From IMG/VR virus record IMGVR_UViG_3300038365_000136: DNA of 35,404 bases, one strand, 5' to 3'. Numbering within the stretch: the first letter of the stretch is position 1; each line of letters opens with the position of its first letter. The stretch comes from a virus. Shown one piece after another: positions 3-20,340 of this stretch. Below the pieces are notes generated by a model. The model saw only the letters and a list, made by a program, of their open reading frames with translations, did no database searches and had not been told where the DNA came from. Position numbers and translations under genes: made by a program.

Positions 3-890
3 ACCTCCTGGGCATGGAACTTCGGTGACGGACAAACATCGACCGTACAGAATCCAGCCCACACATACACCGATCCGGGGACTTACACTGTCACACTGAC
101 AGTTCAAAACACAGTTGGAAGCGCCACTGAGACCAAGACCAATTACATTGCTGTCGGGCAAATCCCAGAGGTAACCTCGACACCGATCGTCTCTGCAACC
201 GAAGGATACCTCTACGAGTATCAGCTGACGGCGAATCAGGGAATCGACACCTGGACCAAGGTAAGTGGTCCCTCCTTCCTTACACTTAGCAGCTCTGGCC
301 TCCTATCCGGTACCCCGAGCGCATCTGACGTCGGCAGTCGTTCGGTTAGCATCAAGGCGATCAGCGCCTTCGGGACGGCCTATCAAAACTTCTCTCTCGC
401 CATTGCTGCCATTCCGGACATTGACGACCCGACATGGCCCCCCTCATTCAACACGCTCCCCGTAACCTCGGGAAAGGTAGGGATGCTCTACCAGTATGCT
501 ATTGAAACCAACGAGACTGCCAACCTAATCCTGTCGAGCTCACCTAGCTGGCTTAAGCTGACGGGAAGCGTCCTTTCCGGCACCCCCACACAGGCCGGGG
601 CATACTCAGTCTCACTCAAGGCCACATCTTCTGCTGGGCTCCTTACAGCATGGCAGAACTGGACGATCACAGTCACCACTATTTCCGCGGACCCGGGAGA
701 TGACGATGATGATAAACCTACGCCCACGAAACCAGGAGGAAGCTCCGGAGAGGACCAGATAATCACTGAGGATGTCTCGGGCAATGGCAATGCGTGGCTC
801 GTCGTCATCGTACTGATGACCGCGACCATCGTTGTCGCTGGCATCGCCATGGCAGGCGGTAGTAAGAAGTCTGGAAGAAGGAGGCGGTGA
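3..890 (+). CDS. 5'-truncated surface protein: PKD domain, two putative Ig (He_PIG-like) domains, acidic linker, C-terminal TM anchor and basic tail
   Basis: Frame 3 is open from base 3 into the track ORF 483-890: TSWAWNFGDGQTSTVQNPAHTYTDPGTYTVTLTV (PKD), then two repeats of the PSFLTLSSSGLLSGTP / PSWLKLTGSVLSGTP type, then a hydrophobic helix and KKSGRRRR. Confidence 0.85.
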   Translation, partial: TSWAWNFGDGQTSTVQNPAHTYTDPGTYTVTLTVQNTVGSATETKTNYIAVGQIPEVTSTPIVSATEGYLYEYQLTANQGIDTWTKVSGPSFLTLSSSGLLSGTPSASDVGSRSVSIKAISAFGTAYQNFSLAIAAIPDIDDPTWPPSFNTLPVTSGKVGMLYQYAIETNETANLILSSSPSWLKLTGSVLSGTPTQAGAYSVSLKATSSAGLLTAWQNWTITVTTISADPGDDDDDKPTPTKPGGSSGEDQIITEDVSGNGNAWLVVIVLMTATIVVAGIAMAGGSKKSGRRRR

Positions 891-2314: not shown

Positions 2315-2373
2315 GCCAGATAACGAGAAAAGATAAGGATCCGCCGATACCGGTCTATCGGGAGGACGAATGA
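2311..2373 (+). CDS. Possible 20-aa micro-ORF (MSQITRKDKDPPIPVYREDE)
   Basis: ATG follows GGAGGCAACC (2297-2306), overlaps the stop at 2314, and its own stop overlaps the ATG at 2370. Confidence 0.3.
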   Translation: MSQITRKDKDPPIPVYREDE

Positions 2374-3743
2374 TGGAGATCGCCAACATGGACGTCCTGG
2401 GCGTCGTCGGCATTCTCCTTCTATGCGCCTTCGTTGGCGTCTGGATGTTCCGGAGCATGGTGTTCAGCCGCACCCTCGGGCAGGAGGTGTTCATGGCCGT
2501 GTTCATGCTCCTCCTAGGCGCGTTCCTGGAATCGTACCTCCGGGGCACCAAGGACTTCGCCATCATCACCGCCGCCCTGATCTTCCTCATCATCGGATGG
2601 GTGCTGTATCAGACTAGGGGAGTATGGAAGGAGATGGCGAGAAGCTCTGGCACCCGAACCAGGTCCCTCATCCCGATCCTCATGGTCGGCCTGATGGTAT
2701 CGACGCTCATCGTCCTGCCGTCCGGCGCGGATGCTTACAAGACGCCGATGCACGAGGACATGGTCGACAGCACCATCCAGGTCCTGGGGAACGACGGCAA
2801 GCAGTATGCCGCCCGTTACTTCCAGGCCGAGGACCTGCACGGCGTCACCCTGCTCCAGTGGATGAAGGACGGCATAGCCGACTGTGATAGGCTGGACCTC
2901 GCCAGGAACCACTACTACAATCCCTACACCGAGAAAGGCCTCACGGCCCTCAACTCGGCGGACCTGTGCCAGCAATATTACGACCAGGCCATCGAGAACT
3001 ACAAGCGGGGCGACTACTCCGGATCGGCCTACAATCTGGGCCGTGCGCTCCACATGGTCATGGACTCCACCGTCCCGCACCATTCGGCCAATGACCCCCT
3101 CAACGGCCACTCCGAGTATGAGGCGTGGATCCACGAGCGGCAGGGACGCTTCACCGTCGTCGATGGCGGCCTGTACGGATACGCCGACACTGCGAGGGAG
3201 TTCGTGACCCAGAACGCCAATGTGTCCTTCTCCCTCTACGAGATGGTTCGGAGCGACAACTCCACCGACGTCAACTTCGAATCGGTGGCGAAGACCATCG
3301 AGCCTCTGGCCATCAGGACGAGCGCGGCGTTCCTCGCCCTCTACCTGGACGAGATACGAGAGATCGCCCCCAAACTCTACGCCACTGACCACACCAACAC
3401 CGGCATTGAGCTGGCATGGTCCCCCAGCGCCGACCCCGGGTTCGTTCGCTACGATGTCTACCGGTCCGGAGCCAACGGGGAGATAGTCCTCGATGAGGCG
3501 CACCGGGTCATCAGCATCGGCGAACGGGACCGCAACAGCATGACGATCGACGGCCTGGCATCCTACGGGGTCTACCAGTTCCAGGTCGTCACGGTGACGA
3601 GCGACGGGACGCTCGAATCGAACACGGTGGAGCAGCGTCTAGGCCTCACCGCTATAATCGCCGTGCTGGCGATCCTCGTACTGGGGACCGCCGTCGGTAT
3701 CGCTTACACGTCCAATGGACGCAGCCGCAGGAGGAAGAGATGA
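2370..3743 (+). CDS. Membrane-anchored Zn-dependent phospholipase C / S1-P1-like family protein with FN3-like domain
   Basis: Metal-ligand pattern HEDM..., RNHYYNP, LGRALHMVMDSTVPHH, HSEYE; FN3-like LAWSPSADPGFVRYDVYRS...YQFQVVTV; several N-terminal TM helices and one C-terminal TM plus basic tail. Confidence 0.75.
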   Translation: MMEIANMDVLGVVGILLLCAFVGVWMFRSMVFSRTLGQEVFMAVFMLLLGAFLESYLRGTKDFAIITAALIFLIIGWVLYQTRGVWKEMARSSGTRTRSLIPILMVGLMVSTLIVLPSGADAYKTPMHEDMVDSTIQVLGNDGKQYAARYFQAEDLHGVTLLQWMKDGIADCDRLDLARNHYYNPYTEKGLTALNSADLCQQYYDQAIENYKRGDYSGSAYNLGRALHMVMDSTVPHHSANDPLNGHSEYEAWIHERQGRFTVVDGGLYGYADTAREFVTQNANVSFSLYEMVRSDNSTDVNFESVAKTIEPLAIRTSAAFLALYLDEIREIAPKLYATDHTNTGIELAWSPSADPGFVRYDVYRSGANGEIVLDEAHRVISIGERDRNSMTIDGLASYGVYQFQVVTVTSDGTLESNTVEQRLGLTAIIAVLAILVLGTAVGIAYTSNGRSRRRKR

Positions 3744-4615
3744 TGGAAACGCAAGAAGTGATCGACAAACGGCAATGGGAGACCTATGCCAAGGAGAACC
3801 TCGAACGGCAGGCTCTCCCAACCAACACCGAGATAGAGCTGTGGCACGACGGCTCGGCGGAGTTCTACTACTCCAAGATACGCCGCATCGCCTCGGTCCA
3901 GCACGAACGATCGGGGATGACGGCGGAGACCTGGGAGGCATTGACGGAGAAGGACATGCCTCCCACATTCACGGTCCTGCTGCACAAGGGTACGCTGGAG
4001 AGCCACATCCACCTATGCAAGTTCAGAGAGACCGACTTCGGAGCGAGACTGGTGCAGAAGATCACGCTCATGAGCGTCCTTCTGCTCTACATCCCCCTAC
4101 TCAGTTCCCTGGCTGGGCTGCTTCCGACCAACATAGACCTGCTGCAATGGTACTGGGTCGCCCCTATCTCCTTGGTCGCCGGCATCTTCACTATGGTCGG
4201 CTGGTACAACAAGGTCGCCGTGTGCGGACGGCTCGTCCTCGAATGCGCCATGCCAGAGCACGAGAAGGGCAACCATCACGTCTGCTACGTCTGCCACTCC
4301 AAGGCGGGGAACGTGCTCAGACAGCTCAACGCCTGGGACCGCCACGCCGCCTGGATGGATGCCCTGGTCGACGGCCTGGTCGACAATCTCAACCAGCAGG
4401 TCGTGGACATGAAGAACTACATCTTCAAGCTGGAGTACGAGGCGTCCGAGCGTGACAAGGAAACCGTCCACCAGACCGTCAGATACTACAACCGCCGCAT
4501 GAAGATGGGCGATGGCCCGGTCACGTCGAAGAGCCAATTCCCGCTGATCGCCGCGCTCATGGTCCTAACGGTCATCGGGACCGCCGCACTGATGTACGCC
4601 ATCATGGGAGGATGA
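3740..4615 (+). CDS. Hypothetical membrane protein (two central TM helices, coiled region, C-terminal TM)
   Basis: 291-aa ORF, ATGA overlap, hydrophobic segments. Confidence 0.7.
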   Translation: MMETQEVIDKRQWETYAKENLERQALPTNTEIELWHDGSAEFYYSKIRRIASVQHERSGMTAETWEALTEKDMPPTFTVLLHKGTLESHIHLCKFRETDFGARLVQKITLMSVLLLYIPLLSSLAGLLPTNIDLLQWYWVAPISLVAGIFTMVGWYNKVAVCGRLVLECAMPEHEKGNHHVCYVCHSKAGNVLRQLNAWDRHAAWMDALVDGLVDNLNQQVVDMKNYIFKLEYEASERDKETVHQTVRYYNRRMKMGDGPVTSKSQFPLIAALMVLTVIGTAALMYAIMGG

Positions 4616-4910: not shown

Positions 4911-4918
4911 CGACTGAC

Positions 4919-4932: not shown

Positions 4933-4945
4933 ATGGAGGCAACCA

Positions 4946-5515: not shown

Positions 5516-5985
5516 TGGCTGTCAGGGACGGATACCAGGATGACGACATGTCCGCCGAGTATTACCCAGGTCCGGACGGTCCTGCCGACGACGAGATCAC
5601 GCCGGATGGCGCTCCATCTCAGATATGGCTTGAGGTCACGACCCCAATGCGGGAGGCCCTCTCCTACATCCACAAATGCATCGCAACGAACGACTGGGAG
5701 CCGGTGGCCATCATCAACTTCGCCGAGGCCTCCAGCAACGCGATCGAGAAGGACATAGTCGACCATCCGGAATGGACACGCATGGACCGCGATCGGCGCT
5801 ACGGCGAGGTCCCTCTCGAATACGGCAAGAAGATGACTCCCGAGCATTTCCTGGCTAGATACCGCCTCATACGAGAACTGCTCCGCAAGTACAACGTCGT
5901 AGGCCGTAAAGCGCCGCAAGGTGACCCGGCCAGATTCCTCTCCTTTTCCTCCCTGGTCCCCAGGGTCACGGAGGATGACAGATGA
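5515..5985 (+). CDS. Hypothetical acidic protein
   Basis: 156-aa ORF, translationally coupled on both sides. Confidence 0.65.
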   Translation: MAVRDGYQDDDMSAEYYPGPDGPADDEITPDGAPSQIWLEVTTPMREALSYIHKCIATNDWEPVAIINFAEASSNAIEKDIVDHPEWTRMDRDRRYGEVPLEYGKKMTPEHFLARYRLIRELLRKYNVVGRKAPQGDPARFLSFSSLVPRVTEDDR

Positions 5986-7133
5986 TAACCGAGATCGAGC
6001 CGTGGCTGCGCGAGGCCGCCGAGGACAACGTCGATCCGTTCGGGGCTCTCGAACTGCTCTTCCGTCCCGGCACCTCGATCATCTTCTCCGGCGAGAGGGG
6101 CGGAGGCAAGACCCATTGCGCCATCGGATGCAACGAGCTGGCCGTGAAGCTCCACCCAGGGAGCCATCTCTTCACCAACGTCATCTTCAAGCGGCTCTCC
6201 TTCGAACCGAACGGCTATTGGGAACCGGGCTGCAAGGTCAATCGAACAAAGGACTGGCCCGACGAGATCACCTACGTCACGTCGCTGGAAAAGGTCTTCC
6301 GGCTCACTGGTGAGATCCTCGATGGAAAGAACGACTGGTACGAGGATGACGACTTCGCCATCTATGAGCTGCTGGACGAGTTCCAGAACTTCATCATGGC
6401 CGATAAGTCATACGAGCCGCTGGTCCAGGCGTTCTTCGTGTACCAGGGCAACCTGAGAAAGTTCAAGCATTGCTGTCAGCAGATCTCCCCGTCCATCTAC
6501 AACATCCCCAAGCGTCTCCGCCGCTTCGTCGATGACATCTCCTATGCAGGCTACCTGTCGGCGCACATCCACAAGGAGAAGTTCATGGTCGAGGACTTCA
6601 ACCGCTGCTGGGGCACCCGCATCCCGTTCAAGTATTTCGCCTCGGTCAAGATCGGCTACGACCACAAGGAGGAGCTCCTTGAGGTCCCGACCGTCACCTG
6701 GAATCGTCCCGAGACCGCTTGCGAGGACGGCGACATCATCTACGATCACTTATCGAGCGCGACGTTCCGTCTCAATGAGAAGCCGATCCAGGACCCCAAG
6801 GAGGAGCTGTGGTTCGGCCAGCTCATCGACAAGGTGGGCGGCGAGGCATCGTTCGACGTGGCCACCGTCATCCAGGACTTCTGGGAGCGGTGGGACCGTG
6901 GCGACGATTACGACCAGGGCATGGACTCCAACTATGAGCTGGCCACCAGGATACGGGAGATGAGGCGGCTTCGCACCAAGAAGGGCGACAAGCTCACATG
7001 GGAGCAGATCGCCCGAATAGAGAGCAAGCCGCGCTCCACCGTTCAGACCATCTACTCCAAGTACGCCCCCCAGCTCGACCTCGACCTGGTGGAGCTGGAG
7101 GAACTCAACGGCATGAAGGGAGGAGTGGCATGA
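5982..7133 (+). CDS. Zot/pI-like P-loop NTPase (putative morphogenesis or packaging ATPase) with C-terminal HTH-like segment
   Basis: Walker A GERGGGKT, following HLFTNV strand, Walker B LLDEFQ, RKFKH...PKRLRR; C-terminal LTWEQIARIESKPRSTVQTIYSKY. Confidence 0.7.
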   Translation: MITEIEPWLREAAEDNVDPFGALELLFRPGTSIIFSGERGGGKTHCAIGCNELAVKLHPGSHLFTNVIFKRLSFEPNGYWEPGCKVNRTKDWPDEITYVTSLEKVFRLTGEILDGKNDWYEDDDFAIYELLDEFQNFIMADKSYEPLVQAFFVYQGNLRKFKHCCQQISPSIYNIPKRLRRFVDDISYAGYLSAHIHKEKFMVEDFNRCWGTRIPFKYFASVKIGYDHKEELLEVPTVTWNRPETACEDGDIIYDHLSSATFRLNEKPIQDPKEELWFGQLIDKVGGEASFDVATVIQDFWERWDRGDDYDQGMDSNYELATRIREMRRLRTKKGDKLTWEQIARIESKPRSTVQTIYSKYAPQLDLDLVELEELNGMKGGVA

Positions 7134-8428
7134 TGCCCTGGAAGAGAAAGGCCAAGCAGACACCGCCACCGAGGGTCAGGCGCGAGTTCAGCCTATACAT
7201 GGAGGTGAGGGACGACGAGCCGCTCTCGGAGTTCTACCGCGACGTGCTCGAACATCCCATACGCTCCCGCATGGACTATCGGAAGGACTGTCTCCGAGGG
7301 AAGCCGCGCCAGGAGTGTAACATCGCCGAGCTCCTAGGAGACCTGAGAGTTCAGTATCAGGAGGACGACCCGCATCGGTACAAAAAAGGTCTCCCCGGGC
7401 CGGATATGGCCGCCTACCGCGCCATCGCCGTCGAGTGCCAGACATGCATCCTGCACAAGAACCGTCCCGGCTCCAAGGAGAACGTTCGCTGCCCGATCGA
7501 GGAACCGGTCCTCGAACCCCTCCCTCCGACACCCAATGACGCTCACCGCCCCAGGCGCATCCTCTTCGGGACCGTAGGTTCGTGGCATGGTAGGATCATG
7601 ACCGCGATCCGACGGGGAGGGGAGTCCCCGAAGAAGGAGCCCCGGAAGCCCCGCATACGATACCGCGAGGCGCTGCCGGACGAGACTCCGCAGGAGCCCG
7701 AGGCCGTGAACACGGTCCAGGAGCCACAGGCCACAGGGCAGGCGGTCGAAACGGCCGAACCCGCCCGTAGCGAGGCTGTCCTGGATCAGGAGGTAAGCGA
7801 GACCGACGAATCTGAACCCACCACGGAACAGGTGGAGCCTCCGCCCGTCGAGGCGGAGCGCCCCGCTCCTAAACCCAGAGCCAAGAAGGCCCCGGCCAAG
7901 AAGCCGGCAGCCAAGAAGAAGGCCCAGGTCGCGGAGGAGCCCCCCGCCCCCGAGCTCCCCCCGGAGCCCGTAGCGGTCGAAGCCCCGACAACGAAGAAGA
8001 AAGCGACCAAGGCCACGCCGAAGAAGTCCCCGGCCAAGGCAAAGCCAGCCCCGCAATCCGAGGAGTCAGGTTCGCCGAAGCCGGACACACCTTCAACGAA
8101 AACGAAAGAGATCGTGCCCCCCATGACCAAGACCTCAGAGCCAGAGGGAGAGGGGCAGACCGCAGACGAGCCACATGAGCCAGTGCCGATGCCAGTAGCC
8201 AAAGCATCGACCAAGAAGGCTGCACCAAGGAAGAGGCCAGGACCGAAGAAGGCCCCGGCCAAAACGCCCGAGGCGACCTCATCCCCATCCGAGGAGACCA
8301 CACCGCTCCCGGGACCTGGGAACGAGCCCTCAGCGAAGCCGAAGAAGGCCCCGGCCAAGAAGGCCGCGCCTAGGAAGGCGGCGAAGAAGACGCCGGCCCA
8401 AGAGACCACAGAACTCACCAGTGAGTGA
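7130..8428 (+). CDS. Protein with Cys-containing N-terminal domain and long Lys/Ala/Pro/Glu low-complexity tail (histone H1-like KKAPAKK repeats)
   Basis: Likely start ATG 7130 after GGAGG (track start 6998 overlaps the ATPase); ECQTC and further Cys residues; KKAPAK x3, KKAAPRK x2. Confidence 0.7.
   Translation: MMPWKRKAKQTPPPRVRREFSLYMEVRDDEPLSEFYRDVLEHPIRSRMDYRKDCLRGKPRQECNIAELLGDLRVQYQEDDPHRYKKGLPGPDMAAYRAIAVECQTCILHKNRPGSKENVRCPIEEPVLEPLPPTPNDAHRPRRILFGTVGSWHGRIMTAIRRGGESPKKEPRKPRIRYREALPDETPQEPEAVNTVQEPQATGQAVETAEPARSEAVLDQEVSETDESEPTTEQVEPPPVEAERPAPKPRAKKAPAKKPAAKKKAQVAEEPPAPELPPEPVAVEAPTTKKKATKATPKKSPAKAKPAPQSEESGSPKPDTPSTKTKEIVPPMTKTSEPEGEGQTADEPHEPVPMPVAKASTKKAAPRKRPGPKKAPAKTPEATSSPSEETTPLPGPGNEPSAKPKKAPAKKAAPRKAAKKTPAQETTELTSE
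7883..8358 (+). repeat. Three exact 17-nt intragenic repeats AAGAAGGCCCCGGCCAA (KKAPAK)
   Basis: Copies at 7883-7899, 8246-8262 and 8342-8358. Confidence 0.85.
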
Positions 8429-8445
8429 GATGGAGGCAACCAAGC

Positions 8446-8919
8446 ATGACAAAAACACAAGGATCAGGATGGCACATGGAGAGCAGGCGGCATCACGACG
8501 CTGCCATGAAGGGGAGAAGGCCGACACACCAGCCTGGAAGGAGGGGCGCTAAGGCCCCGCCCACCGGGAATGGCCAAGTCCGCCTCACTCCCGCACAGGC
8601 GTCCTATCTGGCAGACCTGAACTTCGACAACGACTTCTTCCGCGATCAGCTCCAGGGAGCAGAGGACGACGGCGAGGAGATGGATGCCGCCATCTATCGC
8701 ATCCTCATCAAGGGACCGTCCCTCGAAGCGAGGAAGAGCCTGGATAAGGCCGCATCATCGAAGAGCTCTCAAAACCACACATTCAGCAGGAGCGACATGA
8801 CCTACTTCGCCGCTGCCACCACCTGGTCCTCCCAAGGGGCTGGACTGTGGGGCAACGAGAAGGAGAGCAAACAAGCGCGGGAGCTTACCGATAAGTTCTG
8901 GAAGGCGGGGGCTGAGTGA
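8446..8919 (+). CDS. Tag-array protein 1 (MTKTQGSGWHMESRRHHDAAMKG), unknown C-terminal domain
   Basis: ATG 8446 follows GGAGGCAACCAAGC; carries the shared N-terminal motif. Confidence 0.8.
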   Translation: MTKTQGSGWHMESRRHHDAAMKGRRPTHQPGRRGAKAPPTGNGQVRLTPAQASYLADLNFDNDFFRDQLQGAEDDGEEMDAAIYRILIKGPSLEARKSLDKAASSKSSQNHTFSRSDMTYFAAATTWSSQGAGLWGNEKESKQARELTDKFWKAGAE

Positions 8920-9353
8920 TGTCCAGAGCCGATGGGGGCGGCTGGTACGGCGAGTCCAGGAGACACGCCGAAGCAGCGAAGAAGGGACGACCCGCGAGGT
9001 CTGTCAACGCCGGAGCCCCACCTAGCCTGTCTAGGGAGCGGGATCGCCGGGAGTTCTACAGATGGAACCGGGGCGAGGAGTCCAGGGACGTGAAGAAGAT
9101 GATCCGCGAGAAGTACGGCATCGACGCCTCTGTAACGCAGGGAACTGGTACCGCCTTCTCTTGGATCTATGTCAGGTTGAAAGACGATGTATCCCGCGAG
9201 ACCGAACATGAGGTTTACCAAAGCGTCCTTCGGCTCACCGGAAGGGACCGTTACTACGACACCGACCCCGACCGCAACAAAGCAGACATCTCGGTAGAGA
9301 CCCCTAATCGGGCATACAACCCCGAGACCTGGAGACCGGCTAGGGTGTACTGA
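8919..9353 (+). CDS. Tag-array protein 2 (MSRADGGGWYGESRRHAEAAKKG)
   Basis: Start overlaps the previous stop; shared motif. Confidence 0.8.
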   Translation: MSRADGGGWYGESRRHAEAAKKGRPARSVNAGAPPSLSRERDRREFYRWNRGEESRDVKKMIREKYGIDASVTQGTGTAFSWIYVRLKDDVSRETEHEVYQSVLRLTGRDRYYDTDPDRNKADISVETPNRAYNPETWRPARVY

Positions 9354-9354
9354 C

Positions 9355-10722
9355 ATGGCTACACAGCAGTTCAAGCTCGATGACGGCCAGGGAGGATGGT
9401 TCCGCGAGTCCCGCCGCCATGCTGAGGCCGCCAAGAAGGGCATGGATGGCAGGGACCGGCATTTACCGGTAAATTCGCCCACCAAGCCAGTAGCCAAGAC
9501 CGCGCCCAAGGCCAAGAAGCCTAAGGTCGTCCCCGGCTCCACCATCACGACATATGGGGGAGGCCAGGCGGTCGTCCTCAAGGTCAGGAACAGCAGGGCC
9601 TACGGCCCATCATACGTCTACGGCTACGAGCCGGACGGGTTCACACCGATGGAGATGAGCGGCCATAGCGTCGTGGCCGTGGACGGCGAATGGATAGTTC
9701 CAGAGGAAAACAAATTCCGGCAGTTGCTTGAGAGGGATGGCTTCTGCCCTACCAAGCTCCAGACCGAGACCCTGTCTCTGGAGCCGGAGGCCGCTCCGGC
9801 CGTCGAGCTCCCCCCGCTCCAGGATGGGGAACAATACCAGGTCGTTCAGCTCGATGGTGCGTACATCAACAAGGGATGGGCGAGGACCGGCGACCCCCAG
9901 AAGGCTCTAAGCGCCCTCAAGGAGGCCCAGGACGTCCTCCGCCTCTCTGGTCGGGAGGCCAAGTTCGAAATCATCCCCGCCAGGTCTCTGGATGACGCCA
10001 GGGAGATAGTCCGCAACCGGGGCAAGAGCGACTTCCTGGTGACCGGAGACACCTACGACAACCGCCACTGGCTCAAGGAGTTTGGCCTCAAATGGGACTA
10101 CAATGCTCAGGGCTATCGGGGTAAGCTCTCCCCCGCTCAGGCCGAGAAGGTCAAGGCAAGGGACGGGCTCAGCGTCGAAAGTTCCACCGAGTACACCTAT
10201 GACGAGCAGCGCGACTCTCGCATCGCTCGGGCTGAGGCCAAGGCCGATCGCTACGAAGGCTACGCCAAAAACGCCCGTGAACGTGGCGACTCCCGGCTGG
10301 ACGCCGCTGACAAACGCAGCGAGAGGTTCGAGTTCGGGCAGCCCATCCTAGTAGGTCATCACAGCGAGAAGGGGGCGCGTCGGGACGCCGATCGGATATG
10401 GAGCGACACCAAGAAGGGCTTTGAGGAGCACAAGAAGGCCGATGATTACGAGCACAGGGCCAAAGAAGTGGTCGCACAGGCGTCACGGCGCAAGGGCGAG
10501 ACCGAGGGCCACCGGAACGAGGTCCGGCAGCGGAACAGATCCAGGGTGAAAGAAGGAACCAGAATACAGCACCTGATTTTCGGCGAAGGTGTCGTGAAGA
10601 AGATCAACACCAAGACCATGAAGGTGGAGTTCGACAGCAAGGCCGGAGGCGGGGCGAAGTTCTCCCCCAACATCGATTACGCTGATTCATTCGTAGTAAA
10701 GGATGGAGGCAACCAAGCATGA
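9355..10722 (+). CDS. Tag-array protein 3: multidomain protein with DUF3560-like domain and C-terminal Tudor/SH3-like domain
   Basis: Tag GGWFRESRRHAEAAKKG; GQPILVGHHSEKGARRDADRI (DUF3560 signature); GTRIQHLIFGEGVV...KVEFD resembles the PcrA/UvrD C-terminal Tudor; VTGDTYDNRHWLKEFGLKWD resembles DUF5710-type domains. Confidence 0.8.
   Translation: MATQQFKLDDGQGGWFRESRRHAEAAKKGMDGRDRHLPVNSPTKPVAKTAPKAKKPKVVPGSTITTYGGGQAVVLKVRNSRAYGPSYVYGYEPDGFTPMEMSGHSVVAVDGEWIVPEENKFRQLLERDGFCPTKLQTETLSLEPEAAPAVELPPLQDGEQYQVVQLDGAYINKGWARTGDPQKALSALKEAQDVLRLSGREAKFEIIPARSLDDAREIVRNRGKSDFLVTGDTYDNRHWLKEFGLKWDYNAQGYRGKLSPAQAEKVKARDGLSVESSTEYTYDEQRDSRIARAEAKADRYEGYAKNARERGDSRLDAADKRSERFEFGQPILVGHHSEKGARRDADRIWSDTKKGFEEHKKADDYEHRAKEVVAQASRRKGETEGHRNEVRQRNRSRVKEGTRIQHLIFGEGVVKKINTKTMKVEFDSKAGGGAKFSPNIDYADSFVVKDGGNQA
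9461..9474. promoter_or_regulatory. 14-bp palindrome ATTTACCGGTAAAT, copy 2 (intragenic)
   Basis: Exact copy within ORF 9355. Confidence 0.55.
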
Positions 10723-11942
10723 CCAAAGCACAAGGTTCCGGCTGGCATCGAGAATCAAGACGCCACGCCGAAGCGGCCAAGAAGGGACGGCGGGGACGCC
10801 CTCTCAGGAACGAGGGGCCATCGTCCAGCGGCATGTACGTGACCACCTACCCCGTCAAGACCGTCAAGGTCGGGAAGAAGAAGTACGACATCCCCGTCGG
10901 TCCGGACGGCAAGGTGCCGGAAGAAGCGATCGTCGCCCGCTTCCTCGACGAGTATGAGGGAGACCGCGACGGTGGCAAGCGCAACATCGTCATCGATGCT
11001 CACGATTGGGCCGCCACTCGCATCGAGCCGAACCCCACCCCCGAGCAGATCAAGGACTGGTGGGCGCATCCGAACGAGAGCGACATCAAGAACGTCGACA
11101 CTCCCGACGCCAACATCTTCAACATGGCCGAAGGGATGGGCAAGGGCTCCAAGGATGCCAACCAGGCCATTGCCATAGTCGGCGGGACGGAGCCGCAGCG
11201 CAAGGAGGTTCGCAAGGCCATCGCCGACGGATTCACTGTCAAAGAGCAGAAGGCCATGCGCGGCACGACCATCTACATCACCGACCTCTCCAAATGCGCC
11301 GGGCAGTACCACGGCAAGAGCAAGGACGGCAGCTATCTCATCAAGCTCGACCGCCGGTACGGGGTCGAGGCGGACACCGTCACCCATGAGATGATCCACC
11401 ATCTCCGGGCGGTCGATGAGAAGCGCGACGATCCACTCGTCAAGGCCCGCAGCCCCTACGTCGGCAAGGACCGCGATCTCGAAGAAGCGGCCACCGTCGC
11501 CGAGACCCAGGCAAGGCACAAACCTTACGACTTCTGTGGCAACGATGGCTACTACGGGCTTGTCAAGAACGGCAGCACCAAGCGCCACGAGGACCGAGGG
11601 ACCTTCACCCGGAAGGAGGTCGTGAAGGACCAGAACGGCATCGTGCACCCGCCGAAGAACCCCCAGCTCGTCCAATCCGGCAAGAAGGGCCAACGTGCTC
11701 TCAAGGCCACCAAGGACGGATGGAAGGACTCCAACATCGCACACCTGAACATCACCAAGGGCAAGGCCGAGGCCATCGACCAGTGGTACACCATCACCGA
11801 GAACGGCAAGACCGTGAAGAATGTTCAGGTATACTCCCCACAAGGCGTCCAGGCCAAGGTCCGCCCGAGAGCCGGACAGACCGTTTATGAGTACCGCGAC
11901 GGCAAGAAGGTCAAGATCGCCCAGAAACGGAGGTCGAACTGA
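10719..11942 (+). CDS. Tag-array protein 4: putative zincin-like metallopeptidase
   Basis: Tag GSGWHRESRRHAEAAKKG; AGQY...TVTHEMIH (HExxH) with downstream DLEEAA. Confidence 0.75.
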   Translation: MTKAQGSGWHRESRRHAEAAKKGRRGRPLRNEGPSSSGMYVTTYPVKTVKVGKKKYDIPVGPDGKVPEEAIVARFLDEYEGDRDGGKRNIVIDAHDWAATRIEPNPTPEQIKDWWAHPNESDIKNVDTPDANIFNMAEGMGKGSKDANQAIAIVGGTEPQRKEVRKAIADGFTVKEQKAMRGTTIYITDLSKCAGQYHGKSKDGSYLIKLDRRYGVEADTVTHEMIHHLRAVDEKRDDPLVKARSPYVGKDRDLEEAATVAETQARHKPYDFCGNDGYYGLVKNGSTKRHEDRGTFTRKEVVKDQNGIVHPPKNPQLVQSGKKGQRALKATKDGWKDSNIAHLNITKGKAEAIDQWYTITENGKTVKNVQVYSPQGVQAKVRPRAGQTVYEYRDGKKVKIAQKRRSN

Positions 11943-12187
11943 TGCCGCGCAACAAAGGCTCCGGCTGGCATGGCGAGTCCAGGAGACATGCTGAGGCAGC
12001 CAGAAAAGGCCGCCAGCCGAGGTCTTACCGTCAGCGTATGCAGGCGATTCCGATCGACAAAACGGAGCCATGCCTGACCTGCGGCGCTCCGACGCTGCCG
12101 GGCCGGACCCTGTGCCTGAGATGCGCCAACGATTTCAAGAAAGGAGCCGGAGAGAAGGGCGGCTACAACCCTTCAAGGAACTGGTGA
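11942..12187 (+). CDS. Tag-array protein 5: small C4 zinc-finger protein
   Basis: Tag GSGWHGESRRHAEAARKG; CLTC-x10-CLRC. Confidence 0.75.
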   Translation: MPRNKGSGWHGESRRHAEAARKGRQPRSYRQRMQAIPIDKTEPCLTCGAPTLPGRTLCLRCANDFKKGAGEKGGYNPSRNW

Positions 12188-12191
12188 TACC

Positions 12192-12629
12192 ATGTCCAGA
12201 GCACAAGGTTCAGGCTGGTACGGAGAGTCCAGGAGACACGCCGAAGCGGCCAAGAAGGGAAGAGGACCGATCCACCAGCCCCGGCCGGTCAAGCACTACG
12301 ACAACTACCCTGGCGGCGGTCCCTTCGAGTTCGCCCTCGACGGCACCGCCCAGAACATCGAGGACCGGCTCCGGGACGGCGAGAAGAAAGAAGATGTCGA
12401 ATGGGAGATCGAGGAGGTCAAAGGTTCTTACGACCTCCTCGACCGGGAGCACAAGGCCAGCTTCAAAGCCCATGCCCAGAAGAACTATCCGAGGTTCTCC
12501 AAGCAGATGGGATGGCGGACCGCCCCGAAGCAAGGCCGCAAGCCCTCCTCTCGCCCCATGGATCTTGATAGTGAGACCGAGTTGATCAATGAGATCGAAC
12601 GCGAGACCTACGGGAGGTCGAGGATCTGA
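12192..12629 (+). CDS. Tag-array protein 6
   Basis: Tag GSGWYGESRRHAEAAKKG; acidic central region. Confidence 0.8.
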   Translation: MSRAQGSGWYGESRRHAEAAKKGRGPIHQPRPVKHYDNYPGGGPFEFALDGTAQNIEDRLRDGEKKEDVEWEIEEVKGSYDLLDREHKASFKAHAQKNYPRFSKQMGWRTAPKQGRKPSSRPMDLDSETELINEIERETYGRSRI

Positions 12630-13204
12630 GCGAGGCATCCAGCGGTTCAGGATGGCACCGGGAGTCCAGGAGGCACCACGACGCCGCCCTAAAAGGGCGC
12701 GATCGTAGCGCCGCCAAAACCGTCCAGCTTTCCCTAAAGGACGGCTACCGGAAAGAGCGGAGGCCCAGGAGCTCATCGCCGGACGCCAGCTATCAGGTCG
12801 CCTACCTCCAGGCATTCCTCAAGGCCGAGCAGCGAGACATCAAGCAAAATAACAAGCTGTACAAGGAGATCGTCGAGCGGGACCCCTTCGACGACGCCCA
12901 GGTAAACATCATTGACCTTATCCAGGAAGGACAGGCTCGCATCGACCTCCTCCAGCCGCTCATCGAGGAGGCCCGATCGAAGGGCATGAGCAACCAGGCG
13001 TTCGCTAATCAGCTTAGGACCAGACAGGTCAAGCTCAACACCAAGGCCGATAAGCTCCAACAGAAGGAGGAGATCCTCGGGGAGACCGACTACGACGAGG
13101 ATGAGTTCGAGAAGGTCATTAACGCCCGACACGCCGCCGAGTGGCAAAGCATGGTCCTGACGGGGATCATCCACGACATCGAGCGGGGTGAGACGTTCAG
13201 ATGA
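12626..13204 (+). CDS. Tag-array protein 7 (CTG start, helical/coiled, 192 aa); only its last 72 aa appear in the ORF track
   Basis: CTG at 12626 overlaps the previous TGA, 7 nt after GGGAGGT; translation (M)SEASSGSGWHRESRRHHDAALKG... is open and in frame with track ORF 12986-13204. Confidence 0.75.
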   Translation: MSEASSGSGWHRESRRHHDAALKGRDRSAAKTVQLSLKDGYRKERRPRSSSPDASYQVAYLQAFLKAEQRDIKQNNKLYKEIVERDPFDDAQVNIIDLIQEGQARIDLLQPLIEEARSKGMSNQAFANQLRTRQVKLNTKADKLQQKEEILGETDYDEDEFEKVINARHAAEWQSMVLTGIIHDIERGETFR

Positions 13205-14175
13205 GCAAGCCACAAGGCTCCGGCTGGTGGCGTCAGACCCGCCGCCATCGAGAGGCGGCGCTCAAGGGAACACACGGAAAGAGGACCTCCCACTCCAAGG
13301 CCAAGAAGAAAGAGGGACGGATATCGCAGGTGCAGCTAGACGCGCTCAGAGCCGAGTACCGGGACTCCCGCTCCCCACGCTCCGTCAGCGCCGATCTCCG
13401 CACCACTTCGAAGAACATACTCGATCCCACCGACCCTAAGCAGGTACGGAGGTGGAAGCGCGACCCCTCCCGAGCCGACCTCGACGGGGTCGACACCGAG
13501 TCGCAGAACCTCTATCGGATCAAGGTCGAAACGCTCCCGAAGGTCGAATCACGGAAAGAGTACGTCAAGAAAATCGTCGAGAACGCCCGGAATCGCGCCA
13601 AAGCCCTCCGTTCTAGGGCTAAGACGGGCGAAGACACCTCCGAGGCCCTCAAAAGGGCCGCAAACGAGGCTAGAGAAGCTCTAACCCTAGCCGGACGCGA
13701 TGTCGAGGGCATCTTCGGCGACGCGAAGAAGGAGCAGGATTCGAGGATCCGCACCTATCAGGGCAAGTGGTCGGCCGAGCGGCGCAAACGCGCCGAGACC
13801 GTCGCCGGTACCGTCGGCTGCACCATGTTCGAGGCTGATGCCATGATCGCCCGGGCCAAACGTGCTGGCCTCGACCATGATCTGGTCGATTGGGACGCCA
13901 TCCAGGGCAAGGACCTGGAGTTCTCAGAGCGCGTGGAGCGCCTCGAACGGCAGCTCGGCCGGGAGACCATGACCAAGTCCGAGGAGGACCACTACGTCGA
14001 CTGGCAACTGGAGAAGGCTGAGGGAGAGTTCAGCGACTTCATGGCCGAGCAGGAAGAGCGCCTGGTCGAGGAGTTCGGCGGCGACTACGACGCCATGTAC
14101 GCTCACGACCGGCACATCGATCGGAGAAGGGAGGAGGCAATGAGCTATTCCTACGACCCCCACGCCTACGGCTGA
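13201..14175 (+). CDS. Tag-array protein 8 (basic N-terminal half, acidic helical C-terminal half)
   Basis: Tag GSGWWRQTRRHREAALKG. Confidence 0.8.
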   Translation: MSKPQGSGWWRQTRRHREAALKGTHGKRTSHSKAKKKEGRISQVQLDALRAEYRDSRSPRSVSADLRTTSKNILDPTDPKQVRRWKRDPSRADLDGVDTESQNLYRIKVETLPKVESRKEYVKKIVENARNRAKALRSRAKTGEDTSEALKRAANEAREALTLAGRDVEGIFGDAKKEQDSRIRTYQGKWSAERRKRAETVAGTVGCTMFEADAMIARAKRAGLDHDLVDWDAIQGKDLEFSERVERLERQLGRETMTKSEEDHYVDWQLEKAEGEFSDFMAEQEERLVEEFGGDYDAMYAHDRHIDRRREEAMSYSYDPHAYG

Positions 14176-14179
14176 TCGC

Positions 14180-14193
14180 ATTTACCGGAAAAT
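14180..14193. promoter_or_regulatory. Palindrome copy 3, ATTTACCGGAAAAT (intergenic, 1 mismatch)
   Basis: Lies between ORF 13201 and the SD of ORF 14209. Confidence 0.55.
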
Positions 14194-14208
14194 ACCAGGA
14201 GGAATGGC

Positions 14209-14391
14209 ATGGCAAGAAGCAAGAGAAGCAAGAGTGCGTCATGGCACATGGAACGGCGCAAGAAATATCGAACGAGCACCGGGGCGGACTCGGCCAAGCG
14301 GCCTAGTCCTGGCACCCGGACGAAGTGCTTTGTGAAGGGCTACCGGAAGAAGGATGGGACCCGGATCAGAGGGCACTATCGGAGCATATGA
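14209..14391 (+). CDS. Small, very basic protein; the only array member without an intact tag
   Basis: GGAGG SD; SASWHMERRK may be a degenerate tag; C-terminal FVKGYRKKDGTRIRGHYRS. Confidence 0.6.
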   Translation: MARSKRSKSASWHMERRKKYRTSTGADSAKRPSPGTRTKCFVKGYRKKDGTRIRGHYRSI

Positions 14392-14401
14392 GGAGGAAAA
14401 C

Positions 14402-15106
14402 ATGGCAAGAAAACAATCGATGCAAACCTCTATCGTTGGGAGGAAACAAACCCGACTGAGTGAGAATGGAAGCGGATGGTGGAAGGAGCCCCGCCGCCAC
14501 CGCGAGGCAGCTTTAAGGGGGCAGAGAAGGGCAGCTTCTGACGGACAGCAGGTCAAGCCGGAGAAGATCGAGAGGTTCAGCAGAGCCAGCGCCGCGCGTT
14601 CCACATCGGCCGCCACCCGCCCGGAGCCGACTCCCGCTAAGGACCGTTACGCCGATCTCCGGGCCCCGCCGAGCAGCGCCGAGCTACCGAAGTTCGTTGA
14701 TGGCTGGCCCAAGAAGGATGGGCGCGACGTCCCCCACATCGAGAGATGGGACTCCGAGGACGGGTTCATCGTCGCCGGTCCCGCATATGAGAACCACAAG
14801 CGGGGAAGGAACTGGCTTGCAACCATAGATACCGACCCTACCGCCCCCGGAGGTCTCAAGAGGGATTTCGTCGATCGAGGCAAGGGCCGGTACATGTATC
14901 GCAACCAGCTCGACGTCGGCGACGCCTTCGAGGTCGGCGCTGATTATTACACCGGCGGAGGGAGTAAGAACTCCAATCGGGAATATGGTGTGATCATCGA
15001 GAAGCATGGTGGCACCGTTCAGGTCCTTCGCTTTAAGGAGCCAGAGGACGCCATCAAGTTCTCCAGAGAGATGAGGAGCGCCATCAAATGGGCTGAAAGC
15101 AACTGA
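14402..15106 (+). CDS. Tag-array protein 9 with phage-type C-terminal domain
   Basis: ATG 14402 after GAGGAGG; tag GSGWWKEPRRHREAALRG about 20 aa in; RNWLATI...GGLKRDFV...GDAFEVGADYY domain. Confidence 0.75.
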   Translation: MARKQSMQTSIVGRKQTRLSENGSGWWKEPRRHREAALRGQRRAASDGQQVKPEKIERFSRASAARSTSAATRPEPTPAKDRYADLRAPPSSAELPKFVDGWPKKDGRDVPHIERWDSEDGFIVAGPAYENHKRGRNWLATIDTDPTAPGGLKRDFVDRGKGRYMYRNQLDVGDAFEVGADYYTGGGSKNSNREYGVIIEKHGGTVQVLRFKEPEDAIKFSREMRSAIKWAESN

Positions 15107-15122
15107 AAAGGAGGCAACCAAT

Positions 15123-15836
15123 ATGGCAAAAGGAGATGGAAGTGGATGGCATCGGGAGTCCCGACGCCATGCTGAGGCAGCGAAGAAAGGACGACCGACC
15201 CACGCCAAGGCGGGGGCGAAGAAGCCAGGGAGGACCGTGGAGGGCAAATTCTCGGACCCGGATGCTGCATGGGACAGGTTCGTGAACTATGGGAATGATC
15301 CAATGAACCATACGATGCTATCCCCGTCCGGATTTCTGCAACATTACCACCCAGGAATGACTAACAGGCAGGCCATTGATGCCGAGCTTGTCGATATCAG
15401 CAGGAGGGAGAACATCGACTTCTCAAAGTCGAACATCCGGGAAATGCTCGTAAAATACCTGGACACCGAGGTCGGCACAGACAGATACCAAGAGTTGCTG
15501 AGGGACCCTCTGTTCGTCGGCAACGGCCATGAGGCTCAGACTCTTTCTGACTGGAACAATATCGTGAGGGAACGCTCGAAATACAACACCCCTGCCGACT
15601 ACTATCCGACCGAGGCCGAGGCCATTGGATACATCAAGGCCAGGACGTTCGAGCCAGAAGTGGCTCAGACGCTCTATCGGAAAGGGATAACTCCGGAGCA
15701 GGCGGCAATCGTGACCGAAGTAGGCATAGGCGGTTACAGAGACACCATCGGCTATAAGGTATCGAACGGCGACCTGTCATATCCAGAGGCCAAAGAAATT
15801 GCCAGACGGAACGGCGCTAGGGCGAGAGGAACCTGA
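15123..15836 (+). CDS. Tag-array protein 10 (paralog of protein 11)
   Basis: Tag GSGWHRESRRHAEAAKKGRPTHA; C-terminal GGYRDTIGYKVSNGDL. Confidence 0.8.
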   Translation: MAKGDGSGWHRESRRHAEAAKKGRPTHAKAGAKKPGRTVEGKFSDPDAAWDRFVNYGNDPMNHTMLSPSGFLQHYHPGMTNRQAIDAELVDISRRENIDFSKSNIREMLVKYLDTEVGTDRYQELLRDPLFVGNGHEAQTLSDWNNIVRERSKYNTPADYYPTEAEAIGYIKARTFEPEVAQTLYRKGITPEQAAIVTEVGIGGYRDTIGYKVSNGDLSYPEAKEIARRNGARARGT

Positions 15837-15840
15837 ATAC

Positions 15841-16479
15841 ATGACCCGAGGTGAAGGCTCTGGATGGCATCGAGAATCGAGACGCCATGCTGAGGCAGCG
15901 AAGAAAGGCAGACCGACCCACGCCAGGGCATCAAGAGCAAGGCCAGTCAAAAAGACGCCGGATAGCTGGAAATACACCTCGTCGCGTGAAGCATGGAATC
16001 ACGCGGTCGGAGGAGAATGGACCGCCAAGGAGTTCATGGATTACTCCGGAAAGGACTCCATCGCCGGGGCTGTGGACGCCTTCCTGGACGACTACCCATC
16101 GAAGGATTTCGAGGACCACCGGATCCCAGGAAGCAACGCCAGAGAGATGCTCATCAAATACATCTCGCGGGACATGGGATCGGATAAGCTACGCGCATAC
16201 ACCAGAGAAGTGGACGGGCCACAAGATCAGGAGTGGGCCGCGATCGTCTCCGATTACAAGGACGGCAGGAACGACACGCTGCCAACTGAGGACGAAGTTA
16301 TCCGATACATCAAAGCAGGAGCGTTCGATCCAGACGCCGTCGTACAAATGTATAGGTCAGACATAACTCCCGACATGGCTGGACTCCGAACGAGCGCCGG
16401 GACGGGCGGCTACTCCGGTACGGTCGGCTACAAGATCTCCAACGGCGATCTGCGCGTGGAAGACCTCAAGTCCAGATGA
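15841..16479 (+). CDS. Tag-array protein 11 (paralog of protein 10)
   Basis: ATG 15841; tag GSGWHRESRRHAEAAKKGRPTHA; C-terminal GGYSGTVGYKISNGDL. Confidence 0.8.
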   Translation: MTRGEGSGWHRESRRHAEAAKKGRPTHARASRARPVKKTPDSWKYTSSREAWNHAVGGEWTAKEFMDYSGKDSIAGAVDAFLDDYPSKDFEDHRIPGSNAREMLIKYISRDMGSDKLRAYTREVDGPQDQEWAAIVSDYKDGRNDTLPTEDEVIRYIKAGAFDPDAVVQMYRSDITPDMAGLRTSAGTGGYSGTVGYKISNGDLRVEDLKSR

Positions 16480-20286: not shown

Positions 20287-20340
20287 ATTCCTCAATCCTC
20301 CGGGGTTCTCCCCCCGACAATACCCTAAATGGTTTACATG

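What the first reader, a model, noticed from the sequence alone, without database searches (positions are those of the whole stretch)
8446..16479. Array of unrelated proteins sharing one N-terminal peptide tag: candidate virion cargo-loading system
Seen: 11 of 12 consecutive ORFs (starts 8446, 8919, 9355, 10719, 11942, 12192, 12626, 13201, 14402, 15123, 15841) carry G-W-x4-R-R-H-x-[DE]-A-A-x-[KR]-G near the N-terminus (within about 5-25 residues; consensus GSGWHRESRRHAEAAKKGR). A basic Pro/Lys/Arg linker follows, then mostly unrelated domains of roughly 50-420 aa. Codons vary freely (Ser as TCA/TCC/TCT/AGT/AGC; Arg as AGG/CGG/AGA/CGC/CGA), so selection acts on the peptide, not a DNA repeat. 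I saw the motif nowhere else in the window. Known precedent: T4 internal proteins share a short N-terminal capsid-targeting sequence. Inference: the tag is an address label that binds the genome, the ATPase or an inner membrane protein, so diverse effectors are loaded into particles and delivered on infection. I do not recognise this motif as a named family.
Basis: partly seen in the sequence, partly recalled or inferred. Interest (0 to 1): 0.95.

Follow-up and report, generated by a model that had tools for sequence, protein, structure and literature searches.

The report
Shared terminal peptide on eleven genes
Eleven neighbouring genes of an uncultivated integrative mobile element give otherwise unrelated proteins the same conserved 20-residue end-peptide, an undescribed portable tag that also occurs in arrays in other mobile elements, including a tailed phage's DNA-packaging module. 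It most likely tethers helper proteins to the element's DNA or particle.

Summary
Eleven + strand genes (8446-16479) carry G-[SG]-G-W-x-x-[EQ]-x-R-R-H-x-[DE]-A-A-x-[KR]-G within 5-30 residues of the start. A degenerate DNA pattern hits 11 times against 0.08 expected, and nowhere else in the window. Selection acts on the peptide: 62% of identical residues use different codons.

No Pfam, NCBIfam or PHROG model, PDB sequence or searchable paper covers the tag. It is portable:
- It sits at the C-terminus in a distant homologue of ORF 10719 and in one array member of a sister element.
- It forms arrays of 2-7 genes in at least eight related elements, always after the same Zot-like ATPase module.
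- Arrays also occur in an unrelated groundwater element (7 tags) and in a tailed phage, between terminase and portal genes (5 tags).
- A related motif forms tandem repeats in bacterial hemerythrin and DUF892 proteins.

Tagged bodies include a zincin-like HExxH protein and DUF3560, which elsewhere is fused to Mu portals, ddrB-ParB and RadC.

The cargo-loading reading is plausible but unproven (about 0.4). No virion is shown, the elements are integrated, and no element-encoded partner is shared. DNA or self-association is therefore the likelier partner than the ATPase.

Only first-reader notes on this same window existed in the scan.

The parts
8446..8919 (+). Tagged ORF 1 (157 aa), tag GSGWHMESRRHHDAAMKG at residues 6-23; body unknown and acidic (pI 4.9)
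   Evidence: Pfam and PHROGs find nothing
8916..9353 (+). Tagged ORF 2 (145 aa; GTG 8916 or ATG 8919), tag GGGWYGESRRHAEAAKKG; orthologue in L048
9355..10722 (+). Tagged ORF 3 (455 aa), tag GQGGWFRESRRHAEAAKKG at residues 12-29; DUF3560 domain at residues 291-379
   Evidence: (PF12083, E 8e-24)
10719..11942 (+). Tagged ORF 4 (407 aa), zincin-like protein with invariant HExxHH and EE; the tagged protein with the closest and most numerous orthologues found (47-77% identity)
   Evidence: invariant H223 E224 H227 H228 E255 E256; model: tag disordered with a short helix at 15-21
11942..12187 (+). Tagged ORF 5 (81 aa), tag plus a CxxC...CxxC zinc-ribbon-like body
   Evidence: and inspection of the sequence
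12192..12629 (+). Tagged ORF 6 (145 aa), body unknown
12626..13204 (+). Tagged ORF 7 (192 aa if begun at CTG 12626); no canonical start codon between the stop at 12590 and the tag; orthologue in L075 (37% identity)
13201..14175 (+). Tagged ORF 8 (324 aa), helical body; orthologues in L001, L005, L027, L059, L063 and L075 keep the signature GWW.Q
14209..14391 (+). Untagged small basic ORF (60 aa, pI 11.6) inside the array; conserved in L063 and L059; carries SWHMERRKKY, possibly a degenerate tag
14402..15106 (+). Tagged ORF 9 (234 aa from ATG 14402), tag GSGWWKEPRRHREAALRG at residues 23-40
15123..15836 (+). Tagged ORF 10 (237 aa), paralogue of ORF 11
15841..16479 (+). Tagged ORF 11 (212 aa); residues 26-143 resemble the untagged minus-strand ORF 19333-20295
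5982..7133 (+). P-loop ATPase (383 aa; GERGGGKT), Zot-like by language-model and model-structure neighbours only; conserved just upstream of every related tag array
   Evidence: no Pfam, PHROG or PDB sequence match
6998..8428 (+). Protein with a conserved N-terminal domain, an acidic stretch and a long Pro/Lys/Ala-rich basic tail (pI 9.5); likely true start near 7130; always lies between the ATPase and the first tagged gene
3..4615 (+). Membrane-anchored surface-protein genes of the same co-directional block: PKD/He_PIG protein, 475-aa signal-plus-C-terminal-anchor protein, Zn-phospholipase-C/fn3 protein with 5 hydrophobic segments, 291-aa membrane protein

Best explanation
The eleven genes encode soluble proteins. 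Each carries, on a disordered and strongly basic arm, the same roughly 20-residue peptide: a Gly-Trp turn followed by a short helix, R-R-H-x-[DE]-A-A-x-K, capped by Gly. This peptide is a portable docking module. It can be placed at either end of a protein, and it has been kept by purifying selection in each gene lineage.

Its role is to bring a set of otherwise unrelated accessory proteins to one common partner. These include a zincin-like peptidase, a DUF3560 protein, a zinc-ribbon protein, coiled-coil proteins and others.

The tagged genes always form the distal part of the co-directional block that encodes the element's membrane-anchored surface proteins and Zot-like ATPase. A tailed phage likewise places tagged proteins between its terminase and portal genes. 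The most likely role is therefore to tether these proteins to the element's DNA or nascent particle, so that they leave the cell and enter the next one with the genome. That would be a one-domain-per-protein counterpart of phage internal proteins and polyvalent proteins.

The partner is more likely the DNA itself, or other copies of the tag, than the ATPase or a specific membrane protein.

Shown: the tag, its selection, its portability and its conserved position.
Inferred: binding, packaging and delivery.
For: - Eleven tags against 0.08 expected by chance.
- Peptide-level selection.
- Orthologue-specific tag signatures persist across elements whose bodies share only 35-75% identity: GQGGWF in the 9355 family and GWW.Q in the 13201 family. 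The tags are therefore old and vertically inherited, not recently copied.
- The tag is portable. It is C-terminal in P0012, a homologue of ORF 10719, in L063 ORF 2059-2535, in P0067, P0068 and P0077, and after a DUF7447/phrog_4655 domain in L074. It is absent from distant homologues P0013-P0015 and from the related minus-strand ORF 19333-20295.
- The AF2 model places the tag in a low-confidence arm with a short helix at residues 15-21. The arm has pI 10-12 and there are no TM segments.
- Synteny ATPase, then Pro/Lys-rich protein, then tag array holds in L001, L002, L005, L027, L038, L048, L063 and L075. No + strand terminator-like site lies between 4851 and 16479.
- DUF3560 is fused elsewhere to Portal_Mu, ddrB-ParB, RadC and methyltransferase domains. 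These are architectures of proteins predicted to travel with DNA (PMC5512222).
- In tailed phage L159, five tagged proteins of 85-117 aa and pI 11.4-12 lie between the small-terminase-like gene and TerL, and directly before the portal.
- The window, L074, L159, L013 and L029 share no non-tag protein in the pairs compared.
Against: - No particle, capsid or fusogen is demonstrated. The VP4-like test was inconclusive.
- The ATPase assignment rests on language-model and model-structure neighbours only.
- The elements are integrative, so the block could serve another process.
- A related motif occurs as tandem repeats in cellular bacterial hemerythrin and DUF892 proteins. This suggests a general physico-chemical role rather than a packaging address.
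- The tag is rare in IMG/VR: one clear array contig, a fragment from the same sample that was not checked further, and two contigs with a single N-terminal tag. It was not found in GenBank phages by tblastn.
- No binding was or could be tested.
Confidence: 0.4

Rival explanations
1. The tag is an intracellular tether or sticker. It binds nucleic acid or self-associates, concentrating the proteins on the host or element DNA or in a condensate during replication or takeover. Nothing is packaged.
For: - In-register similarity to 25-residue tandem repeats separated by Asp/Arg-rich spacers in bacterial hemerythrin and DUF892 proteins, a sticker-and-spacer layout.
- The arms are very basic.
- No shared element-encoded partner was found.
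Against: In the window's element family (all eight related loci) and in phage L159 the tagged genes lie inside or directly after morphogenesis or packaging gene blocks, not with replication genes; L074 shows no recognisable packaging genes.
Confidence: 0.25
2. The tag is a processing or turnover signal. It would be a propeptide or recognition site for the tagged zincin-like peptidase (ORF 10719) or for a host protease, timing the activity or lifetime of the whole set.
For: - A zincin-like HExxH protein is the tagged member with the closest and most numerous orthologues found.
- T4 targeting peptides and polyvalent proteins are processed by associated peptidases (PMC5512222).
Against: - L074 and L159 have tag arrays without a detectable homologue of ORF 10719.
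- No conserved cleavage motif follows the tag; the linkers vary.
- The peptidase assignment is itself weak: SprT-like E 0.11, Foldseek E at or above 0.01.
Confidence: 0.1
3. The array is a family of tandem duplicates that diverged beyond recognition except at the N-terminus. The shared peptide would be a relic, or a general solubility or translation-initiation feature, with no common partner.
For: - ORFs 15123 and 15841 are clear paralogues.
- Many bodies have no detectable family.
Against: - The bodies range from 81 to 455 aa and include distinct folds: DUF3560, zincin-like, zinc ribbon.
- The same body family occurs with an N-terminal tag, a C-terminal tag or none.
- The tag occurs on unrelated proteins in unrelated elements.
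- It is the most conserved segment of every protein.
Confidence: 0.1
4. The motif is a hydrophilin-like protective element, comparable to stress-induced KGG-type repeats. It would stabilise proteins or nucleic acid under stress, and the mobile elements merely borrowed it.
For: - It occurs as repeats in tails of bacterial hemerythrin and DUF892 proteins.
- From memory only, SEAARRGW resembles the SEAGRKGG core of KGG repeats.
Against: - The Pfam KGG model does not match the repeat proteins (scanned at E up to 1), the tagged proteins (E up to 0.01) or the ORF 10719 family (E up to 1).
- A single terminal copy per protein, on 11 different proteins of one operon, is not the layout of hydrophilins.
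Confidence: 0.05

Closest known systems
Capsid-targeting sequence of phage T4 internal proteins (IPI-III, Alt)
   Same: A short shared terminal peptide on unrelated, often basic proteins that are encoded with morphogenesis genes. The proposed consequence is the same: co-delivery with DNA.
   Different: There is no sequence relationship. The tag here is about twice as long and can be C-terminal or repeated. It occurs beside a Zot-like ATPase module as well as a terminase module, and also in cellular bacterial proteins. Cleavage and packaging are untested.
Polyvalent proteins of phages and conjugative elements (Iyer et al. 2017, PMC5512222)
   Same: The domain repertoire overlaps. DUF3560 is found fused to Portal_Mu, ddrB-ParB, RadC and methyltransferase domains. 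A zincin-like peptidase is a core member. The genes lie next to packaging or transfer genes.
   Different: Here each domain is a separate small protein carrying the same peptide, rather than many domains in one polypeptide.
Cargo-loading peptides of encapsulins and encapsulation peptides of bacterial microcompartments
   Same: The architecture matches: a short terminal helix, a flexible linker and diverse cargo, at either terminus.
   Different: No shell protein is present, and there is no sequence similarity. The analogy is functional only.
Tandem GW-x-G-D-S-x-G-H-S-E-A-[AS]-R-R-G-W repeats in tails of bacterial hemerythrin and DUF892 proteins (unnamed); possibly KGG stress repeats (PF10685)
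   Same: The pattern G-W-aromatic-x-[DE]-[SP]-x-x-H-x-E-A-[AS]-x-[KR]-G matches in register. Whole-protein hits of the tag profile reach E 1e-9.
   Different: The bacterial motif has Gly before the His, ends in Trp, is repeated 3-6 times and sits in acidic/basic low-complexity tails of cellular proteins. Each single repeat scores only 10-20 bits. The KGG Pfam model does not match.
Pleolipovirus-type proviruses (reported also in Methanomassiliicoccales, PMC10919331)
   Same: An integrative element with a block of membrane and surface proteins followed by an NTPase gene.
   Different: The hallmark VP4 fusogen was not detected. The window is 35 kb, against 7-17 kb for known members. No tag arrays are described for that family.

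Membership tests
T4-type capsid-targeting sequence | Strictly N-terminal short peptide | tested here: not met
   The tag is C-terminal in P0012, P0067, P0068, P0077, L063 ORF 2059-2535 and L074 ORF 4503-4910.
T4-type capsid-targeting sequence | Removed by the prohead protease after loading; cargo found in heads | not testable with these tools
   This needs proteomics or N-terminal sequencing of particles.
Polyvalent proteins (Iyer et al. 2017) | Two to fifteen effector domains in one polypeptide | tested here: not met
   Each tagged protein has one recognisable body. Sizes are 81-455 aa.
Polyvalent proteins (Iyer et al. 2017) | Domains drawn from the shared polyvalent repertoire and encoded next to packaging or transfer genes | tested here: met
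   DUF3560 of ORF 9355 is fused elsewhere to Portal_Mu, ddrB-ParB, RadC and MTS domains. The array follows the ATPase module.
KGG stress-induced repeat (PF10685) | Match to the Pfam model | tested here: not met
   No KGG hit in the tandem-repeat relatives (E up to 1), in the tagged proteins (E up to 0.01) or in the ORF 10719 family (E up to 1).
Twin-arginine (Tat) signal peptide | RR motif followed by a hydrophobic h-region and a cleavage site | tested here: not met
   No hydrophobic segment occurs in any tagged protein. RRH is followed by AEAAKKGR and a basic linker.
Pleolipoviridae-like virus | VP4-like V-shaped fusogen | tested here: inconclusive
   The profile of the 475-aa candidate found no PDB sequence. 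The AF2 model is poor (pLDDT 50). Foldseek and VIA-align give only generic beta-sandwich matches.
Zot/pI-type assembly ATPase (PF05707) | Match to the family model | tested here: inconclusive
   No Pfam hit at E up to 0.01. ESM Atlas neighbour clusters carry Zot in 14-54% of members, with TM 0.44-0.53.
Zincin metallopeptidase (for ORF 10719) | HExxH plus a downstream Glu on a zincin fold | tested here: inconclusive
   HExxHH and EE are invariant in 14 homologues. SprT-like E 0.11 and DUF6782 E 0.016. Foldseek top rows are mostly zincins, but at E 0.01 or higher.

The most novel reading that the evidence does not exclude
The GW...RRH..AA..G peptide is a general 'genome-hitchhiking' handle. Unrelated mobile elements of archaea and bacteria use it to load arbitrary proteins onto the DNA being packaged. 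These elements include integrative Zot-ATPase elements, a tailed phage and a groundwater element. The handle would be a monovalent, plug-and-play alternative to polyvalent proteins and to capsid-specific targeting sequences, and it would work independently of the packaging machine.
Probability: 0.25. Interest if true: 0.85.

Novelty: new variant of a known kind. Interest (0 to 1): 0.68.

Why it matters
If the tag tethers proteins to packaged DNA, it defines a sequence-readable marker for proteins that mobile elements deliver into new hosts. These are candidate counter-defence and takeover factors, and the marker would work in uncultivated archaeal and bacterial elements whose genes are otherwise opaque.

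It would also be a minimal, transferable loading peptide that does not depend on a particular capsid. That makes it directly testable with a reporter fusion and useful as a tool.

Even if the packaging reading fails, this is an undescribed, widely dispersed short motif. It occurs in arrays in mobile elements and as tandem repeats in bacterial stress-type proteins, and a conserved Trp/His/Ala-Ala core invites biochemical study.

Tried and rejected
- **Whole genome and relatives of the ATPase:** no whole genome is held for the window. Scans for ATPase relatives in genome contigs, IMG/VR and GenBank phages found nothing.
- **Tag profile in genome contigs:** the scan failed because a 31-residue query cannot reach the tblastn threshold.
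- **First DNA pattern in IMG/VR:** one spurious hit.
- **Metagenome pattern scan:** about two thirds of the 67 hits were GC-rich chance matches, and I removed them with the HMM.
- **Literature:** searches for motif strings, DUF3560, PA2171 and Methanomassiliicoccales viruses gave nothing on the tag.
- **ESM Atlas for ORF 13201:** no usable hit.
- **L013:** Pfam found nothing. **L029:** a tagged gene lies next to phospholipase C, Fic and subtilase genes, which is uninformative.
- **Phage relatives of L159:** MW202621 has no tags, and GenBank phages have no match to an L159 tagged protein.
- **Tat signal reading:** rejected, because there is no hydrophobic region.
- **DNA repeat or gene conversion reading:** rejected on codon variation and on orthologue-specific tag signatures.
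- **'Unusually large genome' reading:** doubtful. L075 is flanked by an integrase-type gene and host genes, and the 96-kb L001 contig carries a gene of a widespread AdoMet-decarboxylase cluster. Its type I-E CRISPR-Cas is therefore probably the host's.
- **Host identity:** could not be named. Archaeal, Thermoplasmatota-like, is suggested only by Atlas neighbour taxa and by an HMG-CoA reductase gene next to L075.

Full report
**1.

Six-frame ORF listing and translation show eleven + strand genes between 8446 and 16479. Each begins, within 5-30 residues, with G-[SG]-G-W-[HYFW]-x-[EQ]-[STP]-R-R-H-x-[DE]-A-A-x-[KR]-G.
- A degenerate DNA pattern for GW-x4-RRH matches 11 times, all on the + strand. 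Shuffles give a mean of 0.08 and a maximum of 1.
- An HMM of the tag finds these 11 and no others in the window, at 47-58 bits. Reversed sequences totalling 2.05 million residues never exceed 12.6 bits.
- The 18 codons are 66% identical at the nucleotide level and 77% at the amino-acid level. 62% of identical residues use different codons. The conserved object is therefore the peptide, not a DNA repeat.
- The segment after the tag is a basic arm (pI 10-12), and none of the proteins has a hydrophobic segment.
- The twelfth ORF (14209-14391) is a real conserved gene without a clear tag.
- ORF 7 has no ATG, GTG or TTG upstream of its tag. Only a CTG overlaps the preceding TGA.

**2. What the tag is.**

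No named family or solved structure covers it.
- Pfam, NCBIfam and PHROGs have no model for it.
- No PDB chain contains it.
- The paper library returned nothing for several motif strings.

A profile search of 1.84 billion representative proteins gave 64 hits at E below 1e-3. Of the 63 hits other than ORF 10719's own cluster representative:
- 41 carry one N-terminal copy. About half of these have bodies homologous to the window's own tagged proteins.
- 3 carry one copy at the extreme C-terminus.
- 16 carry several copies.
- 2 carry one internal copy, and 1 has no copy above the 10-bit threshold.

The multi-copy proteins are mainly bacterial-type hemerythrin and DUF892 proteins. Their Asp/Arg-rich tails hold 3-6 repeats of GW[YF]GDS.GH[SA]EA[AS]RRGW. 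In register, these share G, W, the aromatic residue, the acid, S/P, H, E, A, A/S, a basic residue and G with the tag. The relationship is plausible but rests on summed weak repeat scores.

In the AF2 model of ORF 10719 the tag lies in a low-confidence arm with a short helix at residues 15-21.

**3. The tag is portable and old.**

The ORF 10719 family shows all possible states.
- Close homologues carry N-terminal tags.
- P0012 has none at the N-terminus and a clear copy at its C-terminus.
- P0013-P0015 have none.
- The L001 orthologue was called without a tag only because the gene caller chose an internal Met.

In the sister element L063, one array member (ORF 2059-2535) carries the tag at its C-terminus. 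In the window, a domain of tagged ORF 15841 recurs in the untagged minus-strand ORF 19333-20295.

Orthologues keep lineage-specific tag variants across elements: GQGGWF for the 9355 family and GWW.Q for the 13201 family. This argues for long vertical retention under selection rather than homogenisation.

**4. Context.**

All genes from position 3 to 16479 are co-directional, with overlapping or closely spaced junctions. No + strand terminator-like site lies after 4851. The upstream part of the block encodes:
- membrane-anchored PKD/He_PIG, phospholipase-C/fn3 and other surface proteins;
- a P-loop ATPase, whose only family assignment is by Atlas neighbours (Zot-like, mostly archaeal Thermoplasmatota clusters);
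- a protein with a long Pro/Lys-rich tail.

The order ATPase, then Pro/Lys-rich protein, then tag array recurs in L001 (5 tags), L002, L005, L027, L038, L048, L063 (6-7 tags) and L075 (5 tags). A fermentation-metagenome contig (UOOM01002442) is nearly identical to the window.

The elements are integrative.
- L075 is followed by an integrase-type gene and host genes for AdoMet decarboxylase and HMG-CoA reductase.
- The 96-kb L001 contig holds a member of that same AdoMet decarboxylase cluster. Its type I-E CRISPR-Cas is therefore probably the host's.
- Distant, untagged relatives of ORF 10719 lie with a related ATPase in 10-12-kb integrase-flanked modules.

I could not show that the element is a virus. 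The 475-aa spike candidate gives a poor model and only generic beta-sandwich matches.

**5. The tagged bodies.**

- ORF 9355 carries DUF3560. In longer proteins this domain is fused to phage Mu portal, ddrB-ParB, RadC, ParB and methyltransferase domains. These are the architectures described for polyvalent proteins that accompany DNA into new hosts (PMC5512222).
- ORF 10719 has invariant HExxHH and EE motifs. Its similarity to zincin peptidases is sub-threshold.
- ORF 11942 looks like a zinc ribbon.
- The rest are unassigned.

**6. Tag arrays outside this element family.**

- L074 (groundwater, 11.6 kb) shares nothing with the window except seven tags. These are N-terminal, C-terminal or internal by gene call.
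- L159 (IMG/VR UViG_3300009506_001376) is a tailed phage. It has two tagged genes between a small-terminase-like gene and TerL, which is 51% identical to an annotated large terminase. Three more lie directly before the portal gene, which is followed by a 1578-aa protein with two HExxH motifs. Its tagged proteins are 85-117 aa with pI 11.4-12. A related phage, MW202621, lacks them.
- With the tags masked, BLAST finds no protein shared among the window, L074, L159, L013 and L029 in the pairs compared.

**7. Interpretation.**

What is shown: a selected, portable terminal peptide that marks sets of proteins in mobile elements, placed with morphogenesis or packaging genes.

What is inferred: it docks these proteins to a common partner so that they travel with the genome.

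The arrays lie beside at least two unrelated machineries, and the elements share no candidate receptor. The partner is therefore more likely DNA or the tag itself than the ATPase or a membrane protein. Small basic T4 internal proteins are the nearest functional precedent, and polyvalent proteins are the nearest in domain content.

The bacterial tandem repeats, the rarity of the tag in viral databases and the absence of any particle evidence keep my confidence at about 0.4. The rivals, with their tests, are:
- an intracellular tether or condensate sticker;
- a processing signal;
- a relic of duplication;
- a hydrophilin-like element.

**8. Novelty and score.**

The motif is undescribed in the libraries and papers I searched. 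An array of 11 tagged genes would surprise specialists in archaeal and phage biology. The proposed principle, a shared terminal targeting peptide, is known, so I class it as a new variant of a known kind. Interest is 0.68.

Noticed in passing
window 12590-12650: Tagged ORF 7 has no canonical start codon. Only a CTG at 12626 overlaps the upstream TGA (CTGA, where other junctions have ATGA). The near-identical contig L054 has the same sequence, so this is either a non-canonical or coupled start, or a recent start-codon loss.
   Followed up: partly
window 14209-14391; L063 4192-4353: An untagged 60-aa basic ORF inside the array is conserved in L063 and L059. It carries SW[HV]MERR[KH]KY, possibly a decayed tag, and a C-terminal motif, GYRKKDGTRIRGHYR in the window and PYTKRDGTHVKGHMR in L063.
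   Followed up: partly
window 34126-35403: The last, 3'-open ORF is 35% identical over 267 aa to a stretch of L075 that overlaps a gene with a precomputed Phage_integrase hit. Pfam found nothing in the window ORF itself. It is probably the element's integrase region.
   Followed up: partly
window 23036-25405 and 30581-31465: A 789-aa ParB-N/HTH_ParB protein with a long C-terminal extension, and a DUF5131 (phage Gp37/Gp68-type) protein. A ParB orthologue directly follows the tag array in L063, so window 16.5-23 kb, with its minus-strand genes including an HNH-repeat protein, looks like a variable insertion.
   Followed up: partly
L001 13455-21170: A complete type I-E CRISPR-Cas operon lies about 1 kb from the end of the tag array on a 96-kb contig that also carries a host-type AdoMet decarboxylase gene. 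It is probably the host's system, next to an integrated element.
   Followed up: partly
L072 and L073: Small integrase-flanked modules (10-12 kb) each carry two untagged paralogues of the ORF 10719 zincin-like protein plus a distant relative of the ATPase. They may be an ancestral, tag-free form of the element family.
   Followed up: partly
L159 9041-13777: A 1578-aa protein after the portal gene of the tagged tailed phage has two HExxH motifs (HEFAH, HESAH). Its N-terminal part matches the gene that follows the portal in Pelagibacter phages. It looks like a MuF-position polyvalent protein.
   Followed up: no
L029 4016-7135: A single tagged 160-aa protein lies between a subtilase gene and Zn-phospholipase-C and Fic genes on a 7-kb contig. 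A phospholipase C also sits in the window's upstream module.
   Followed up: no
window 8446-16479, about half the tags: A second mini-motif, P-[TI]-H-[AQS], follows the tag by 2-4 residues in several proteins (KGRRPTHQ, KGRGPIHQ, KGRPTHAK, KGRPTHAR) and in orthologues in L063 and L075. In L074 the tags are instead followed by KGG..AP.ER.
   Followed up: no
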